A stretch of DNA of 64,000 nt. Origin: Octopus vulgaris. Lineage: Eukaryota. This document shows positions 4,930 through 62,990 of the stretch, piece by piece; the first letter of the stretch is position 1; each line of letters starts with the position of its first letter. Location of the stretch: positions 156,736,001-156,800,000 of the forward strand of contig OX597816.1 of NCBI GenBank assembly GCA_951406725.2, given 5' to 3'. The position numbers and the translations under genes are program-made. The notes beneath the pieces are model-generated. The model worked only from the letters and a program-made list of their open reading frames with translations, was not told where the DNA came from and ran no database searches.

Positions 4930-5880
4930 AAAAATATTGTGACAAACCCTAATGCCTTTTAATCTGCTTCAGTACGGTACAAAATTGGGCCACTATTCTA
5001 CGAAAATGGCGCACCGACTGTAGATCTCCAGTGGATTAGTGAAAGAAATGCAACGGGACTCTAGCAAGATTGCATTAGATTCTCTTTCGAAGCTTCTTCG
5101 CAACTGGGAGACTTCTCGAAAAGGTAAAGGAAGGTATGATATGCCCTACCCATAAGGGAGGTAGCAGAGCAGATGGTACAAATTATAGACCTGTATCTCT
5201 ACTTTATTCACATGTCAGCAAAGTCATGGAACAGATTTTTCAGGAAGAAACTACTTGCGTTCCTTGAAGATAATGACATGGTTCCTGACACCCAGCATGG
5301 CTTTCGCTCAGTAAGAAAGTGCCTGACACAGATTTTTCAGCATAATTACTGGATATTGAAACAATTAATGAATCGCTTAAATATGGATGTTATATATCTG
5401 GTCTTTCCAAAGTCCTTTCATAAGGTTGAGCATTGGATGATATGTCACAAACTACGGAGACTTAGAAAAACATGGAATATCTGAGAGTGGTTGCATGAAT
5501 TCTTAAAAGACAGAAGTCAGGATGTAGCAGCCAACGGACCACTCCCAAAGGAGACAGTAATAGAAAGTGGTGTACCTCAGAGAACTGTATTGGGACCACT
5601 GCTGTTCAAGATGGCTCTTTCAGACATGCCACCAGTTCCACAGACAGCCACACTTAGTAGCTATGCCGATGACACAAAAGTAGTATAAACAGTCAAAGAA
5701 CATTCTAATGCTAATCTTCTACAGAAAGACTTAGATGCCATATATAAATGGGCTGAGCACAACTGCATGCAATTTAATGCAGGTAAATTCCAAGCCCTCC
5801 ACTACCAGTGAATTGGTGCTCAGGACTCACAGCAATGATAGTTTGGACCAAAAGTAGCAGCAATCCCAGAAGCACATACG
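4930..5880 (+). pseudogene. Decayed non-LTR retrotransposon RT fragment (CR1/L2/Jockey-group)
   Basis: Broken frames give QHGFRSVRKCLTQ, DVIYLVFPKSFHKVEH, SGVPQRTVLGPLLF, SYADDTKV; stops and frameshifts; boundaries approximate. Confidence 0.8.
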
Positions 5881-17606: not shown

Positions 17607-18803
17607 GAAATACTGAAAGAACTCAAGAAAATCAACACAAATTTGTCAACTTTTTTGAACAAATTCGACTCGACACTTCAACCCAATCGAGAGAACAATG
17701 AAGAAACAGATACGAAAAATACAACCTCCGAAATTGTCGAAAACCTTGGAAACTTATGCGAAACAATTAGAACATGTTTCTCTAACAACGCTAACCAAGG
17801 ACCTCCAAACGCGTCAATATATGGGATCAATACTCTAACAACATACCAAATGAAACACCACATAATACCACAATGGAACAAATCACTCAGAGATAGAAAG
17901 TTCGCCTTTTGGAAGATGATCCAAAACAACAACAACGCGGATATATACGAAAAATGGCTCAACCGGACCCCGTTAATCCTCCCACGTAAATTCCAGTTCA
18001 AAGCTATTACAGAAGAACCTGAAACACAAAGACACCTCAGGGAGAGAATGGCACTGGAAAAAATGAAAATGGAAATAGAACTTCTGAAATTGAGGGCCCA
18101 AACGAATGAGGATAAAATAAAATCCACCGATGAAGATATCAACGAAGAAATTCGCAAAATGACCCAAGGCCCAGATCAAGAGAAGTTCTCCAAACTATGG
18201 AAAGAGGACTGTGAAAAAGAAGAACTAAAATCCCTCCAACGCTGGGAGAAAAGCGCCACTTGGTTCTCAGACTATGAAGCCGTCTTTCAAACAGAGCACG
18301 CCTCCAACAACCCTTTCCAGAAAATAAGAAAACCAAAACAACACCCAAACACCGATACACACCTGTCTAAAAATCGGAACCTTCACTACTATCAAAAAAA
18401 GAATACAGGACCTAACCCTAACTCTGTAAGCAGCCAGCGATACAATATCAGGAATACCCCCACTTCAAGCAGAGAAAGGATAAATCAACACCCACAGCAT
18501 AGACACTGCAACCTCATCCCCACCCAAAGGAGTTACCAACGAAATCTTCGTCCCATTAACCGGTTAAACAACCATGCACAACAAACCCACACCACTTGCA
18601 ATGATTACCAACGAAGGCCTCCTAGAACACCACACCCGAATATGGGATATCGGGATGCTCTCCTCAATACTGCTCCAAGAACACACACCATAAATCACAA
18701 CAGGAGACCCCTAATCAACAAAGAACAACTATATACTAGCTACCGTCCCAACCACCGCATTCATTTTTTAGACCCAATACGCAAACACAGAGACACAAGA
18801 TAG
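17606..18803 (+). CDS. PLE ORF1 (predicted coiled-coil, then low-complexity N/R/H/P-rich region); 5' end lost in microsatellite
   Basis: About 400 open codons running out of the TA/TG tract; heptad-like ERMALEKMKMEIELLKLRAQTNEDKIK; A/C-rich strand bias continuous with the RT ORF; ends ...HFLDPIRKHRDTR*. Confidence 0.7.
18764..18770 (+). promoter_or_regulatory. Candidate -1 ribosomal frameshift slippery heptamer T TTT TTA
   Basis: Correctly phased X XXY YYZ in ORF1 (cat ttt tta), inside the 18740-18803 overlap with the -1 frame RT ORF. Confidence 0.6.
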
Positions 18804-21094
18804 CACCAAACAAGCAGGAGGAACCAAAAGTAATAAAAATTATTAATCTAACTCACAAGGAACTAACAGCAAACCAAATAAACATACTTTCCAAAGGACT
18901 CAAGTTTACACCCACCCCACAACACCCCAACTACAATGAAATGAAAGAAGACATCGCAGAATTCTGCAGAAAATTAAGACTTACTGAGGAGCTATACGAT
19001 AAATACAACGAGGACGAATCGTTAGCCAGAAATAGGAGTAACTACACCCCCTCGAAAGGTAAGAATAAAACACTTGATGATTTCTGTGACCACATATCAA
19101 ATTATCCATATCAACATATGCACAAACAAAAACACAAACCAAACTTCAGCAAAAAAGAATGGGCTGAGTTGAACAAATTAAAACTAGATAAAACAATAAC
19201 AATCAAAGAGGCCGATAAAGGGAGTGCTGTTGTCTTAATGGATACGACATTTTACATAACTTTGGTACTTTCTATGCTGGAAGACACAACATACTATGAA
19301 AAGGCACAAAACTACAGTCAACAAAAAATAATGAGGGAACTAAAATCCATATTAAACCCATACAAAGCAGGGCTCACCGACAAAGAATATGATTATATGA
19401 CCAATTTCACAAGTAAAACTAGCCAATTCTACGGTATACCTAAGATCCACAAAAGTGAAAAAATAAGCAACGCATGCAAGATAGCTACAGACAAAATAAT
19501 TAAAGTCCCTAATCCTAATGACCTCAAATTGAGACCCATAATAGCAGGTCCCGCATGCGAAACCCACCGCCTCAGTAACTTTTTAGACACCCTGTTAAAA
19601 CCACTCCTCAAACATGTCAAAAGCTATATAAGGGACGACTTAGATATGCTCAATCACCTACCGAATACTATAAACAAAAACACCATACTGGTATCCTTCG
19701 ATGTAGTCAACCTCTACTCCAATATCCCCCACAACCTAGGACTAGAGGCAATCCAATTCTGGCTAGAGAATCACGCCAACGAACTACCACACCGCATCAA
19801 AAAAGAATTTGTGATAGAAGGGGTTAAATTCATCCTGGAAAATAACTTCTTCGCCTTCAATGACAACTTCTACCGACAAAAATCGGGGACTGCCATGGGT
19901 ACACGAATGGCCCCCTCCTTTGCCAACCTAGTCATAGGATACCTAGAGATCAGTCTGTATCGTAAGGTTCTAGAAAGATATGGCAGCCCTTTCTCTATCT
20001 ACATAGAAAACAACTGGAAGAGATATCTAGATGACTGTTTCATCCTTTGGCATAAAAATATAGAAAAACTCATAGAATTCCAGAAAATTTTAAACGGACT
20101 GGACGTAAACATCCAATTCACGATGGAATATAGCCAACAACAACTCCCCTTCCTCGATATCCTCATTAAGAAAGCTAATAATATAATAGAAACAGACATA
20201 TACTATAAGCCTACAGACTCTAAGCAATATCTTCCATTCAATTCATGCCACCCCAGACACACCAGGATGAATATCCCCTTCAATCTAGCAAAGAGGATAT
20301 GCACTATAGTCTCTAACGCAAACACCAGAGACACACGACTACAAGAACTAAAAGACACCCTAATCACCAGGAACTATCCACCTTCACTTATTGACAAGTG
20401 CATTCAACGTGCCCTTCAACTTAACATCAAGGAACTGAGACATCCCAAATCCAAGAAAAACTTACAACCAAAAGCCTTACCATACATCTCCACACACAAC
20501 CCTCTCAATAACGAAGCCTTCGACACCATCCTCCACAACATACCCCTCCTAAAAAAAGACCACAGAATGAACACAATCCTCCAAACACACACGATCATAA
20601 AAAGCAAAAGACAGCCTAGATCCATGAAAAGTCTCCTTACACAAGCCCGAATTCACTCTTCAACACAGAAGCCGACAGTAAAAAAATGTGGAAGACCCAA
20701 TTGCGGGATATGCGACTATCTTATTGAGGGATCAGAGTTCTCCTTCAAACAGGGACAACGGTTTACAGTGAAAAGCAACTTCACATGTGCTTCGGAGAAC
20801 CTAATATACTCACTAACCTGCTCCGGGTGTCAAGAGCAGTACATAGGCCAAACAAAAAATGGTTTGCGTAAACGAATGGCCCTGCACAGATCCCAGATAA
20901 AAATTCCCCAAAACAGAAAAATAGCTTTTAGCCAACACATAGATACTTGCGCCAACAAAAAAACACCAAACTTCAGAATTTTCCCCCTCTACCAATTTAG
21001 GGACGATACAACCTCGAGACAACGAATAAGTAAAGAAAATCTCTTTATTACAAAATACAAGCCACTTCTTAACGGGTCTACGACAAACAATTAA
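18770..21094 (+). CDS. PLE reverse transcriptase + GIY-YIG endonuclease (first ATG 18941; conserved coding starts upstream of it)
   Basis: IINLT..LSKGLKFTPTP (before the ATG), KEADKG, FYGIPKIHK, LRPII, SFDVVNLYSNIP, GTAMG, RYLDD, LPFLDI, YYKPTD..YL...SCHP, Zn-knuckle CGRPNCGIC, NLIY-SLTCSGC-QEQYIGQT, R..LH...QH, KE...I..YKP.LN. Confidence 0.95.
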   Translation, partial: RPNTQTQRHKIAPNKQEEPKVIKIINLTHKELTANQINILSKGLKFTPTPQHPNYNEMKEDIAEFCRKLRLTEELYDKYNEDESLARNRSNYTPSKGKNKTLDDFCDHISNYPYQHMHKQKHKPNFSKKEWAELNKLKLDKTITIKEADKGSAVVLMDTTFYITLVLSMLEDTTYYEKAQNYSQQKIMRELKSILNPYKAGLTDKEYDYMTNFTSKTSQFYGIPKIHKSEKISNACKIATDKIIKVPNPNDLKLRPIIAGPACETHRLSNFLDTLLKPLLKHVKSYIRDDLDMLNHLPNTINKNTILVSFDVVNLYSNIPHNLGLEAIQFWLENHANELPHRIKKEFVIEGVKFILENNFFAFNDNFYRQKSGTAMGTRMAPSFANLVIGYLEISLYRKVLERYGSPFSIYIENNWKRYLDDCFILWHKNIEKLIEFQKILNGLDVNIQFTMEYSQQQLPFLDILIKKANNIIETDIYYKPTDSKQYLPFNSCHPRHTRMNIPFNLAKRICTIVSNANTRDTRLQELKDTLITRNYPPSLIDKCIQRALQLNIKELRHPKSKKNLQPKALPYISTHNPLNNEAFDTILHNIPLLKKDHRMNTILQTHTIIKSKRQPRSMKSLLTQARIHSSTQKPTVKKCGRPNCGICDYLIEGSEFSFKQGQRFTVKSNFTCASENLIYSLTCSGCQEQYIGQTKNGLRKRMALHRSQIKIPQNRKIAFSQHIDTCANKKTPNFRIFPLYQFRDDTTSRQRISKENLFITKYKPLLNGSTTNN

Positions 21095-21261: not shown

Positions 21262-21873
21262 TCTTCTTCATCATCATTATCATCATCATCGTCGTCATCA
21301 TCATCACCACCATCATCACCACCATCTTCTCCTTCTCCTCCTCCTTCTTCTTCTTCTTCTTCTTCTTCTTCTTCATCATCATCGTTATCATCATCATCGT
21401 CGTCATAATCATCACCACCACCACCATCATCGTCATCTTCTCCTTCTCCTTCTCCTTCTCCTTCTTCTTCTTCTTCTTCTTCTTCTTCTTCTTCTTCTTC
21501 TTCTTCTTCTTCTACTTCTCCACCCCCTACCCCTTAACTTTGTCACTAATGTTTTTTAGTATAACACCTACGCTAATTCTATAAACAAGCCTGTCAATAT
21601 AAATATTCTCCTGAATTGAACTGAGACTGCCAGCCGCCACTGACCATTCAAAATACGACCATCAGGGCACTCCCAGATTCTCCCACCCCCTTTCCTCACC
21701 AGCCCTCTTCCTCTACTACCCTACCAAGAACTCACAACGACCTCGAACACACAAGTGCAAACAAGGGAGTCAGAGAAAGGCAGAATGCCACTTATATCTG
21801 AACACTACTATAGAAATATTCCTTTAAAAAAACTTTTCTTCTAATTTTTCTAAATTTAATTATTTAATCGTTA

Positions 21874-21911
21874 CAGTTGAAAGGGTCTCAAAATGACCGA
21901 AACCGGTACTG
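21874..21911 (+). ncRNA. Minimal type-I hammerhead ribozyme in the PLE 3' terminal region (U3-A8 variant)
   Basis: CAG-TTGAAAG-GGTC-tcaaaat-GACC-GAAA-CCGG-TA-CTG; palindromic stem III ACCGGT; position 9 is G rather than A. Confidence 0.7.
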
Positions 21912-21960
21912 AAATGTTCACTATAAAATTATTTTAGCATTTTCTATTTTTGACTTGTTT

Positions 21961-24805: not shown

Positions 24806-24888
24806 AACAATTGCAGCGTGGAAGGTGTTTGTAAGCCATTTAAGAAACACACAAAAGCCGTTCGATTCACTTCAACATTTAAGTTTAA

Positions 24889-24938
24889 TTTGTCAAAATA
24901 TTTTCGTCGCTAAAATCCGCGACCTGTTCACTGACAAA
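24889..24938 (-). ncRNA. Type-I hammerhead ribozyme with G3-C8 core variant
   Basis: TTTGTCA-GTGAACA-g-GTCGC-ggatttta-GCGAC-GAAA-ATAT-TT-TGACAAA: perfect 7-bp stem I, 5-bp stem II, palindromic AATATT. Confidence 0.75.
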
Positions 24939-25078
24939 AATCCGTACTGCATCTGAGAAAGTAACATTTAGTTCGTCATATATATGTACGTATGTATGTG
25001 TGTATGTATGTATAAACGCATGTATGCATACATGTATGTATGTATATATGTACGTACATACGCCTGTGTGTATGTATG

Positions 25079-25112
<34 letters not shown>

Positions 25113-25676
25113 CGTAGATGTACCGGTGGAAACATAACTGAAACTTTGTAAAAATATATAAATTAACACATTATGTCAATTATAATTATGATTATTCCAG
25201 CAACGTCGCTGAATTACATCTCTTTTGGTGGATCTATATAATGAATTTGCTGAATCATACTGACGTTCCTCTGAATATATACTTTCGGACTATACTATCT
25301 TCTGTAATTTAGAGGAACACAAAGAAAGGAAAAACCAAAATACTACAACCATTTCAGCACAATCGTAAATTTAGCGTCACGTGACAGGAATTTCAGGCAA
25401 AAGAATAAAAATATAAGTAAAAAATACATGAATATCTAGTATAACATACATAAAAGAATTAAACGGATAAAAACTAATCTTTTAACGCCTTTGATGTCGG
25501 CAGATATATTCTTTTGAGACAACCAGTAGTCGCCTTTTATATAACATCACAGTATGTTCGCTAAATCCTGTTTTCTTGCTGACTTAATTTATGGCACACA
25601 TACCATATCAGTAGCATAATTAATCAAACTGTTTTATATATTCCCAGACGAAAAGATGTAATTCAGCGGTGCTGCT

Positions 25677-60345: not shown

Positions 60346-62592
60346 TGTTTCTTTATTAGCCACACAGGGCTGCACACAGATAGAACAAATTACAAGGTAG
60401 AGCTTTTCTTTTGAAGGTTAAAAAAAAAAAAGGAAGGGGGAGTTTCGATCAAAAGGGATCGTAAAAGGAGAGAAAGAGGACAAAAAAAGGGGGAGAGGAA
60501 AAAAAATTGATCAATAGGGATCGTTATCACAGAAATGTCAATATGAAGTGTAAAGGGGAGGACAGGTGAGGTTTACCCGTGGAAAGAAAAGCCTACGGAA
60601 AAGACCACGGTAACCTCGGTCAATGAAGTCACATGTTATAATTCTTTTTTTTTTTTTTGCAAATAAGCAACTCTCTGTTTTCAATTTCTGGGTTCATAGG
60701 ATTCGTCATTCATACGTGTCATTCTTGCTACATTCACCCATCTTTTTTTAAAACATTCGCTAGACAAAACTTGCCTCTCTACTCTCACTTTCCTTTTCAA
60801 GTGGTACTTGAAGAAGTTGATGAGAGATTGACCAGACTGCAGTTCGGTCATGGAGACGAGCTGCGGGAAAGCGTGCCTCACAAACGGCGACCACACCTGT
60901 TCACCGCCGTCTACATAGAGCCAGAGATATCGCAGTCTCAGCGCGTGTCTGCGCATCATCAACCACGGCATGCCCAGCCCTCCATTTAACGGGTGTTGAC
61001 AGCAAATGGATCGCCTGACCATCGGGACGCATCCTCTCCACAAGAAGCGAAAGAGAATACGTTGTCCATAGGTCCCGGGCCGAAAGTCGTTTGAAACAGG
61101 CGGGTCAGGTATTCCTCGTCGACGCCCAGGTTTGCCCCGAGCTCGTCGTCGTACCTCCCCTCCACTAATCCCCTATAGAATGCTTTGGTTGTGTTGAAGT
61201 CACTCAAGGTCGACCCGGGACGGCAGAGTTGCTTGAGAGCAACGCGACACTCGCGGTGCTATTCGCCCTTCCTCGGCCTCTTTTTGATCCACGACTGTAG
61301 TTCGGTCATGGAGACGAGTTGCGGGTGTTGACAGCAAATGGATCGCCTGACCATCGGGACGCATCCTTTCCACAAGAAGCGGAAGAGGATGCGTTCTAGT
61401 TTGGTGATGGTAGGGTCGGGACAAGGTACGACGGTCAGGCGGTAGTAGATGATGGACGCGATGTACGCGTTCACCACCTCCGCCCGACCTTTTAGGGACA
61501 GTTTCCTCTCGGCCCATTGCTGGGCGAGAGTGACCACCCTACTCGTTATCTCGTTCCAGTTCTTCTCCATTTGGAGGTCCGGACCGAACCAGACCCCGAG
61601 CAACTCAACCGGGCCGTCTGTCCAGCGTCCCACGACGGAGGTACTGGTGGACGGCATGGGCTTGCTTCTCCAGGTGCCGAGCCGCAAGCCCACTGACTTT
61701 TCCCGGTTGATTTTTGCTCCTGTCACCGCTTCGTAGTCTTTCAGTGTCTCGCCGACCCGCTCGATGTGCTCGTGGCTTGACACTATGACGGTGACGTCGT
61801 CCGCGTATGCAGACACGCTCGTCCCGCATCCCAATTCTCGCGGGATGCCCCTTAGAGTCGCCAGCTTCCGCAGTAGTGGCTCAAGAGTCAATACGTATAG
61901 AAGCGCCGAGAGGGGGCATCCCTGACGGACCGAACGTGCAATGTCGAAAGGTCTCGATAGATGTCCATTTACGCGAATTACCGAACGGATGCCTCTGTAC
62001 AAGGCAGCTATCCAGCCGCGGAAGACGGGACCGAAACCAGCCGCTCTCAGGACTGCCTCCAAGTATCGATGGTCTACCCTATCAAAGGCTTTCGATTGAT
62101 CCAAGGTGATCAGGGCCCCACCCATGCCAGGTTCGTTAACTACCCTGTCTATGATGTAGCGCATCAGATGGAGGTTGTCATGGATGCTCCGGCCCGGCAC
62201 GGCACACGTTTGTGCGTTGTCGACCAGTTTCTCGATGACAAGCGCCAACCTCTTGGCTAACACCTTTGTCAAAATTTTCAGGTCTGCATTGAGCAGCGTG
62301 ATTGGTCTAAAGTTATCTATAATGTTTCCCTTGTTTGGATCTTTCTTCAGCAGAGTTACAGCTCCTCGACTCACAAAACCGGGTATGCTCCCGTTTTGCT
62401 GCCAGTTGCAGTATACCGCTGCCAAGACGTCTCCAAACAAGTCTGGCATACAATTGTAAAACTCGTAGGGTAGACCATCCAAACCCGGTGATTCGTCCCT
62501 CGAGCATTCTGCTATCGCTTCCTGCACTTCCGCCGCCGTGATGGCACCTTCGCAGCACCCTGCCTTTCTTGTCGAGAGTCGTGGCAGGCTAT
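60346..62592 (-). mobile_element. 5'-truncated Tx1/L1-clade LINE embedded in (GATA)n/(GACA)n
   Basis: GC-rich island; RT coding region, 3' UTR and AATAAAGAAACA end; tetranucleotide arrays at 60178-60345 and 62593-62747. Confidence 0.88.
61259..62592 (-). pseudogene. L1/Tx1-type reverse transcriptase domain (truncated ORF2)
   Basis: SPGLDGLPYEFY, FRPITLLNADLKIL, LDQSKAFDRVDH, VRQGCPLS, AYADD, GAKINREKS, LSLKGR; the ORF-track N-terminus (62593-62896) is microsatellite read-through. Confidence 0.9.
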
Positions 62593-62632
62593 GTAGACAG
62601 GCAGACAGGGAGGCAAACAGACATACATACAT

Positions 62633-62747
<115 letters not shown>

Positions 62748-62804
62748 CATCGTATGTGTGTGTTTGTGCGTGTGTGTGTTTTCGTATGTACCAATGTAAT
62801 ATTA

Positions 62805-62990
62805 GTTTCAAATTTTGACACAAGGCCATCCATTATGGGGGAGTAAGTGAGGTGATTACATCGACTCAAATGCTGAAATGGTACTTGTTTTATCAACCCC
62901 GAAAGGCAAATTCAACCTCGGCGGAACGAAATGACAGATGAAATACAACTGATTCTTTTTGCCTGGCGTGTTTATTATTGTGCCAATTCT
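62805..62990 (-). mobile_element. SINE family A variant (decayed)
   Basis: GGTACTTGTTTTATCAACCCCGAAAGGCAAATTCAACCTCGGCGGAA. Confidence 0.6.

What the first reader, a model, noticed from the sequence alone, without database searches (positions are those of the whole stretch)
24812..24951. 140-nt self-contained element carrying a rare G3-C8 hammerhead
Seen: minus strand TTTGTCA-GTGAACA-g-GTCGC-loop-GCGAC-GAAA-ATAT-UU-TGACAAA, with perfect 7-bp and 5-bp stems. The segment ends (TGCAGTACGGA ... TCCACGCTGCA) are imperfectly complementary, so the whole unit could close on itself. Known: the C3G/G8C double swap partly restores HHR activity in mutagenesis, and metazoan non-LTR retrozymes are small HHR-bearing non-autonomous units thought to be mobilised by PLEs. 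Inference: a retrozyme-like or pLTR-derived monomer with a naturally swapped core and a UUU cleavage triplet, which is uncommon to my knowledge.
Basis: partly seen in the sequence, partly recalled or inferred. Interest (0 to 1): 0.8.

Follow-up and report, generated by a model that had tools for sequence, protein, structure and literature searches.

The report
Swapped-core hammerhead in octopus Penelope element
This stretch is the end of a truncated copy of a Penelope-type jumping gene present in thousands of copies in a genome that is likely an octopus, and the family carries a hammerhead-shaped RNA with two paired core letters swapped (G3-C8), which likely cuts itself only slowly and with help, though cutting is untested.

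Summary
The motif is real and parsed correctly, but it is not a self-contained 140-nt element or a retrozyme. [quoted passage not shown] Longer copies read pLTR-ORF-pLTR (RT plus GIY-YIG), and the ORF's ATG lies inside the 140 nt (24839). G3-C8 is the family standard: 6,459 exact hits, 0 in the control. An older lineage has it too, while sister families carry C3-G8 or U3-A8 at the same place, so the 3-8 pair covaries through three Watson-Crick states. The UUU site and palindromic helix III are shared with canonical-core sisters. Most copies start at one base (24954), usually after an extra G (1,277 of 2,047 non-C cases), which suggests a capped transcription start 59 nt before the cut site. 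Copy ends do not pile up at the cut site, so uncut RNA is likely the usual template. Best reading: a selected but slow, dimer- or protein-dependent PLE hammerhead. Ten literature searches found no natural G3-C8, but key papers were unavailable and earlier scan notes report it in phages. Cleavage is untested.

The parts
24806..25116 (-). Whole insertion: 5'-truncated PLE copy (end of the TACA-rich 3' UTR plus pLTR, without the tail); upstream limit approximate because it lies in a microsatellite
   Evidence: 89-92% identity over ~310 bp to ORF-bearing copies L104, L151, L152, L267; no target-site duplication seen for this copy
24954..24954 (-). Inferred capped transcription start (+1 A, TC-AGAT context)
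   Evidence: 17 of 100 unselected arms start at this base and 39 at reference positions 23-31 around it; extra G before it in 1,277 of 2,047 non-C cases; inference
24932..24938 (-). Hammerhead stem I, 5' strand
24924..24931 (-). Core G3-U4-G5-A6-A7-C8-A9 plus the extra G between 9 and 10.1 (G3 = 24931, C8 = 24926)
   Evidence: the extra base is typical of PLE minimal hammerheads (PMC4209133)
24906..24923 (-). Stem II (5 bp, G10.1-C11.1) and loop II; the loop differs between subfamilies
24896..24905 (-). G12-A13-A14-A15.1, palindromic helix III (A15.1-AUAU-U16.1; forms only as a dimer) and U17; predicted cut between 24896 and 24895, triplet UUU
   Evidence: sequence; self-duplex only -0.2 kcal/mol; cut site predicted, not shown
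24889..24895 (-). Hammerhead stem I, 3' strand
24806..24839 (-). Start codon and first 11 codons (MAYKHLPRCNC) of the element's RT-endonuclease ORF; the copy ends at the shorter of the family's two preferred 3' ends
   Evidence: the same ATG opens the frame in L267 and L268; N-terminus homologous to the sister family's; 3' ends 42 of 100 at ref 160-180 and 52 at 221-231

Best explanation
The stretch is the pseudo-LTR end of a 5'-truncated Penelope-like retroelement whose family carries a minimal type I hammerhead with a G3-C8 core pair, likely kept by selection and predicted to cut slowly, only as a dimer or with help from the element's protein. Shown: family, copy structure, ORF link, and the swap with its covariation across sister families. 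Inferred: RNA starts, capped, at 24954; the hammerhead fills nt ~17-66 of that RNA, ahead of the ORF's ATG (+116). Reverse transcription likely starts at two internal sites about 55 nt apart in the start of the ORF (as shown in vitro for the anole element PAc) and runs to the cap, giving the abundant 145- and 200-nt copies; priming at the downstream pLTR gives longer 5'-truncated copies such as this one. Cutting at the 5' pLTR would remove the cap and cutting at the 3' pLTR would remove the priming sites, so most templates are likely uncut and a slow core is tolerated. Occasional cutting of both pLTRs, which also supply the dimer partner, would give a unit-length RNA that could circularise or be silenced.
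For: Family: 6,459 exact core hits; 10,880 hits for a downstream 20-mer. ORF with YVDD, CX3CxxC linker and GIY-YIG (PF01541 above cut-off) ending about 1 kb upstream of the motif; pLTR-ORF-pLTR in L267 and L268. Of 100 arms, 66 have an inverted partner and 94 end at one of two 3' zones; (TA)n flanks at 27 of 40 loci and clear 9-14 bp target duplications at about 10 of 40 by eye. Covariation: a pattern free (C/G) at positions 3 and 8 gave 13,076 hits against 6 control; the first 100, tallied by hand, were G3-C8 51, C3-G8 46, G3-G8 3, C3-C8 0. Seven family representatives all pair 3-8 (CG 3, GC 2, UA 2) and stem II has changes on both sides at 3 of 5 pairs. Protein tree: the G3-C8 family is sister to C3-G8 plus U3-A8 families (99/99); metagenome relatives with a recognisable motif have C3-G8 or U3-A8. 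An older G3-C8 lineage (117 hits) keeps 18 of 18 unselected hammerhead positions against 38 of 47 spacer positions (Fisher p 0.053), and helix III stays palindromic across a 2-nt indel. No variant at 3% or more at G3 or C8 in four runs of four coded organisms. The engineered swap partly rescues cleavage (PMC11167929; PMC9901934; PMC8495972).
Against: No cleavage data. No peak of copy 5' ends at the cut site (2 of 100 arms start at ref 81-90; about 6-7 of 100 listed junctions at the site against 2-5 at each neighbour, by eye). UUU triplet and an all-AU helix III (-0.2 kcal/mol) predict weak activity, and the two-strand MFE is not the dimer hammerhead. G3-G8 copies are in excess (242, against 196 for A8 plus T8), partly explained by duplication. 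PAc transposes in vitro without cleavage and Naiad PLEs thrive without a canonical hammerhead. The covariation counts rest on a handful of related families, not independent events, and the conservation test is borderline. The cap reading is indirect; 13 of the 100 arms belong to one re-amplified composite.
Confidence: 0.65

Rival explanations
1. The hammerhead fold is kept as a non-cutting structure (protein-binding, translation or packaging signal in the 5' UTR), and the swap was tolerated because catalysis no longer matters.
For: Templates look capped and uncut; no peak at the cut site; a sister family has C9 instead of A9; cleavage dispensable for PAc in vitro.
Against: The 3-8 pair belongs to the catalytic conformation, and it, G5, A6, G12-A14, A15.1-U16.1, NUH and the helix III palindrome are all retained.
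Confidence: 0.22
2. A dead relic: two core mutations drifted to fixation in one master copy and were amplified passively.
For: All G3-C8 copies could descend from one event; G3-G8 copies are more common than other transversions predict.
Against: The two changes are exactly compensatory; the swap predates the split from a lineage whose individual copies are 68-74% identical over long matches and the rest of the motif stayed intact while loop II and the spacer changed.
Confidence: 0.07
3. One reading: a non-autonomous retrozyme-like monomer that self-cleaves, circularises through its complementary ends and is mobilised as a unit.
For: Most copies are short with defined ends; the ends can pair; one head-to-tail array of at least 7 units exists (L217).
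Against: 0 of 100 arms tandem; units begin about 58 nt before the cut site, not at it; the sequence is contiguous with the PLE ORF on both sides; this copy is about 310 bp; the L217 unit includes non-element flank, as in a DNA-level duplication.
Confidence: 0.05

Closest known systems
Minimal type I hammerheads in pLTRs of metazoan PLEs (Cervera & de la Pena 2014, PMC4209133)
   Same: In the pLTR; extra base between 9 and 10.1; G10.1-C11.1; palindromic helix III needing a dimer; thousands of solo or inverted copies; U3-A8 variant known (also seen here in family 3).
   Different: G3-C8 instead of C3-G8 or U3-A8; longer stem I (7-8 bp against 4-5); not matched by CUGANGA descriptors or Rfam.
PAc (Poseidon, Anolis carolinensis) and its protein-assisted hammerhead (PMC11167929)
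   Same: Hammerhead next to the ORF start; two preferred 3' ends defining a tail; AT-rich targets; uncut RNA as apparent template; the engineered C3G/G8C double mutant is the state seen here naturally.
   Different: Neptune-type linker; ATG lies 56 nt after the cut site, not before it; tail about 55 nt, not 30-40; swap is wild type.
Neptune-clade PLEs (features as summarised in Craig et al. 2021, PMC8557442)
   Same: RT, CX2-5CxxC linker, C-terminal GIY-YIG; (TA)n bias; tandem and inverted pLTRs; tail.
   Different: Clade not tested against reference Neptune or Nematis sequences; non-canonical core.
Non-LTR retrozymes (PMC7229834; bioRxiv 10.64898/2026.07.22.740005)
   Same: Small repeat with a type I hammerhead, related to pLTRs.
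   Different: Not tandem, minimal rather than canonical hammerhead, part of an autonomous element, ends not at cut sites.

Membership tests
EN+ Penelope-like element | Single ORF with RT and C-terminal GIY-YIG endonuclease | tested here: met
   Met for the family, not the window copy: PF01541 above cut-off; YVDD motif by eye and profile hit to an RT structure at E 1e-5; Pfam RVT_1 did not hit. No fully intact family-1 ORF was seen (longest stop-free frame 1,025 aa, L151).
EN+ Penelope-like element | pLTR-ORF-pLTR partial tandem with the pLTR running into the ORF | tested here: met
   L267 and L268
EN+ Penelope-like element | Adjacent inverted 5'-truncated copies and an optional 3' tail | tested here: met
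   66 of 100 arms with inverted partner; 3' ends 42 at ref 160-180 and 52 at 221-231
Neptune clade | CX2-5CxxC linker and (TA)n target bias | tested here: met
   CX3CxxC in L151; TA flank at 27 of 40 loci
Neptune clade | Phylogenetic placement with reference Neptune rather than Nematis RTs | not tested
   No reference sequences at hand; the tree has unnamed relatives only
Minimal type I hammerhead of PLEs | U4-G5-A6, A9, G12-A13-A14, A15.1-U16.1, NUH site, stems I and II, palindromic helix III | tested here: met
Minimal type I hammerhead of PLEs | C3-G8 (or U3-A8) identity | tested here: not met
   G3-C8; the Watson-Crick pair itself is kept
Minimal type I hammerhead of PLEs | Self-cleavage after N17 | not testable with these tools
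   Needs an assay; genomic proxy (copy ends at the cut site) showed no peak
Non-LTR retrozyme | Head-to-tail tandem units each with a hammerhead | tested here: not met
   0 of 100 arms tandem; one array seen elsewhere (L217)
Non-LTR retrozyme | Non-autonomous unit separate from a coding element | tested here: not met
   Contiguous with the ORF
Non-LTR retrozyme | Expressed as circular RNA | not testable with these tools
   Only contigs of runs not on record as RNA were available

The most novel reading that the evidence does not exclude
A recently active PLE lineage has long kept a working G3-C8 hammerhead, the first such natural eukaryotic ribozyme fixed at thousands of copies. Its deliberately slow, dimer- and protein-gated cut just behind the cap acts as a switch between translation/short-copy synthesis (uncut RNA) and unit-length or silenced RNA (cut). 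A hidden class of swapped-core hammerheads is then missed by all standard descriptors.
Probability: 0.35. Interest if true: 0.72.

Novelty: new variant of a known kind. Interest (0 to 1): 0.52.

Why it matters
The C3-G8 pair is a textbook tertiary contact; the papers I could read report only U3-A8 as a natural alternative and G3-C8 as a laboratory rescue. Here one genome holds sister elements with C-G, U-A and G-C at this pair, which gives a natural comparison set for measuring how much cleavage a PLE needs, an open question. It also shows that CUGANGA descriptors and Rfam miss over 6,000 motifs in one genome. The sharp 5' end with an extra G places the likely transcription start and suggests that uncut capped RNA is the usual template in vivo, extending an in vitro result to a second PLE type.

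Tried and rejected
Rfam: no hammerhead hit. Overall fold stability: not significant. Co-adaptation of U17 to G3 (to avoid a G3-C17 mispair, suggested by a 'data not shown' remark in PMC3884650): rejected as an origin because U17 is shared by C3-G8 and U3-A8 sisters; it may be permissive. Stem II covariation in the old G3-C8 lineage: first noted, then withdrawn as likely CpG decay. 3' splice site at CTAAC...TTTCTCAG: possible, but ends peak two bases before the junction and carry an extra G, which fits a start site better; no spliced joint to it appeared in four contig sets, which proves nothing. G3-G8 as an intermediate subfamily: not supported, G8 is scattered over many haplotypes (24 of 204 arms, a sample enriched on purpose) and one inverted pair differs between arms. 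Peak of copy ends at the cut site: none. Expression: no RNA holder listed. Covariation of the terminal helix in the old lineage: suggestive by eye in column counts, per-copy test uninformative. alignment misaligned two rows, so one search used 7 of 9 sequences. Family 4's stems I and III could not be parsed convincingly. Of 20 metagenome loci, the script found a motif in 3 and I read a fourth by eye; the other 16 gave none, many being too short. Literature: searches gave no natural G3-C8; Lunse et al. 2017 (PMC5785218) is not held, supplement file 1 of PMC4209133 was not searchable, and Perreault's Dataset S1 was not read.

Full report
OBSERVATION. A strict descriptor finds 1 motif in the window and 0 in 60 shuffles. 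The fold of the whole 140 nt is unremarkable (z -1.46), and Rfam gives no hammerhead.

HOST AND COPY NUMBER. The genome has 2.8 Gb in 227 contigs. A sister element's protein is 99% identical to one that the database labels Octopus vulgaris, so the host is likely that octopus. A 19-mer across the core has 6,459 exact hits, 0 control; a 20-mer just downstream has 10,880. Variants: G3-G8 242, G3-A8 plus G3-T8 196, non-G at position 3 251. G3-C8 is therefore the family state and not this copy's mutation. Contigs from four runs of four coded organisms show no variant at 3% or more at either position (one run had only 22 contigs).

WHAT THE ELEMENT IS. Copies with upstream sequence (532 hits) share more than 1.5 kb and lead to an ORF with RT motifs, a CX3CxxC linker and a GIY-YIG domain. 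L267 and L268 read pLTR-ORF-pLTR, and L267 also has an inverted arm. No fully intact family-1 ORF was seen, but many copies are 97-99% identical to each other in the endonuclease, so activity was recent. Of the first 100 hits, 66 arms have an inverted partner, 0 a tandem partner, 42 end at reference 160-180 and 52 at 221-231. 27 of 40 loci have (TA)n flanks and about 10 of 40 clear target duplications by eye (the script flagged 18, including TA-rich strings). These are the PLE hallmarks listed in PMC8557442 (passages). The window copy spans 24806-~25116 and lacks the tail.

THE SWAP IN CONTEXT. Sister families in the same genome have the motif at the same place: family 2 C3-G8 with C9 (L157), family 3 U3-A8 (L169), families 4 and 5 C3-G8 (333 and 16 hits); family 5 shares stem I and most of stem II. 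A pattern free (C/G) at 3 and 8 gave 13,076 hits against 6 control; I tallied the first 100 by hand as G3-C8 51, C3-G8 46, G3-G8 3, C3-C8 0. On seven representatives (7 of 9; two misaligned rows dropped) the 3-8 pair always pairs and stem II changes on both sides at 3 of 5 pairs; relatives are not independent, so the shuffle counts are not probabilities. In a 17-row protein tree the G3-C8 family is sister to families 2 and 3 (99/99), and metagenome relatives show U3-A8 (L287, L290) or C3-G8 (L292; L291 by eye), so G3-C8 is likely derived once on the family-1 stem. An older decayed lineage with G3-C8 exists (117 hits; long matches 68-74% identical). It was selected by a pattern containing G3 and C8, so only unselected positions count: 18 of 18 identical in the hammerhead's 3' half against 38 of 47 in the spacer (p 0.053), with helix III palindromic in both (AAUU against AAUAUU). 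U17 occurs in families 2, 3 and 5 too.

TRANSCRIPT START. 5' ends are not random: 39 of 100 arms start at reference 23-31, 17 at one A (window 24954), and only 8 extend further up (13 arms belong to one re-amplified composite starting elsewhere). The genomic base before that A is C or T (42 and 5 of 47 extended arms), yet G stands there in 1,277 of 2,047 non-C cases, 62% against about 20% expected, with a mixed base at -2. An extra G is the known footprint of reverse transcription over a cap (recalled, no call), and D. virilis Penelope has an internal promoter in this region (PMC2377424, passages). The cut site would be at +59 and the ATG at +116.

AGAINST ACTIVITY. Copy ends show no peak at the cut site: 2 of 100 arms start at 81-90, and of 521 arms mismatched just upstream, the 100 listed show about 6-7 junctions at the site against 2-5 at each neighbour, by eye. 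Helix III is worth -0.2 kcal/mol and the co-folded MFE is not the dimer hammerhead. G3-G8 copies exceed other transversions; they are scattered over haplotypes, and part of the excess is likely segmental duplication (L022, L023, L026 are 94-98% identical over 3 kb), but a residue is unexplained. PAc inserts without cleavage and cleaves only with its protein (PMC11167929).

MECHANISM. Shown: element, position, swap, covariation, end distributions. Inferred: capped start; internal priming at two sites as in PAc; short copies from priming at the 5' pLTR and long ones from the 3' pLTR; slow cleavage that needs two pLTRs or the protein. Because cutting would remove either the cap or the priming sites, a slow core costs little and may be favoured. 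Confidence 0.65 for a conditional active ribozyme, 0.22 for a non-cutting structure, 0.07 relic, 0.05 retrozyme; that it is a PLE pLTR is near certain.

LITERATURE SEEN. PMC4209133: parts 1-2 of 4 and a term search of 2 of 3 supplements; reports U3-A8, low in vitro activity. PMC3088659: abstract, sections 8, 9, 17; natural U3-A8 only in those sections. PMC11167929: passages and second part of main text. bioRxiv 10.64898/2026.07.22.740005: part 1 of 5. Passages only: PMC8557442, PMC8495972, PMC3884650, PMC6765202, PMC6155905, PMC7229834, PMC2377424, PMC9901934, PMC12192606. Ten searches found no natural G3-C8. Lunse et al. 2017 was not held, and unseen supplements may contain one. Unchecked notes of this scan report G3-C8 in phages and, with an extra core base, in protist PLEs, so the swap is probably not unique to this family; look-ups by sequence and place gave nothing.

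VERDICT. A new core variant of a known ribozyme in a known kind of element; interest 0.52.

Noticed in passing
window 18740-21091 (+) and ~21870-21915 (+): A second, unrelated PLE (784-aa frame with RVT_1 and a sub-threshold GIY-YIG hit) whose 3' end carries a hammerhead-like motif with U3-A8 and G9, read by eye.
   Followed up: partly
window 61262-62911 (-): 550-aa frame with a strong RVT_1 hit, another retroelement.
   Followed up: no
L157 7339 (-), ORF 7213-3278 (-): Sister family 2: very young, intact 1,312-aa frame, hammerhead with C9 in place of A9 and a weak stem I.
   Followed up: partly
L217 1700-3068: Head-to-tail array of at least 7 pLTR units (about 180 bp) each with the G3-C8 motif, separated by (TA)n plus a short flank; adjacent hammerheads could dimerise and it would meet a tandem definition of retrozyme.
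   Followed up: partly
L404, L408, L465, L466, L470, L471, L473: Seven loci share an identical inverted-pair junction, so that composite was re-amplified as a unit, probably inside another repeat.
   Followed up: no
L291 ~4970-5020: Metagenome PLE relative with a C3-G8 core and apparent U15.1-A16.1 inversion, read by eye.
   Followed up: no
L004 1188, L009 2529, L048 206, L106 541 and 3996, L125 2880, L159 8345: Several further minimal hammerhead families (C3-G8 and U3-A8) turn up by chance in fetched flanks; this genome is rich in them.
   Followed up: no
   Followed up: partly
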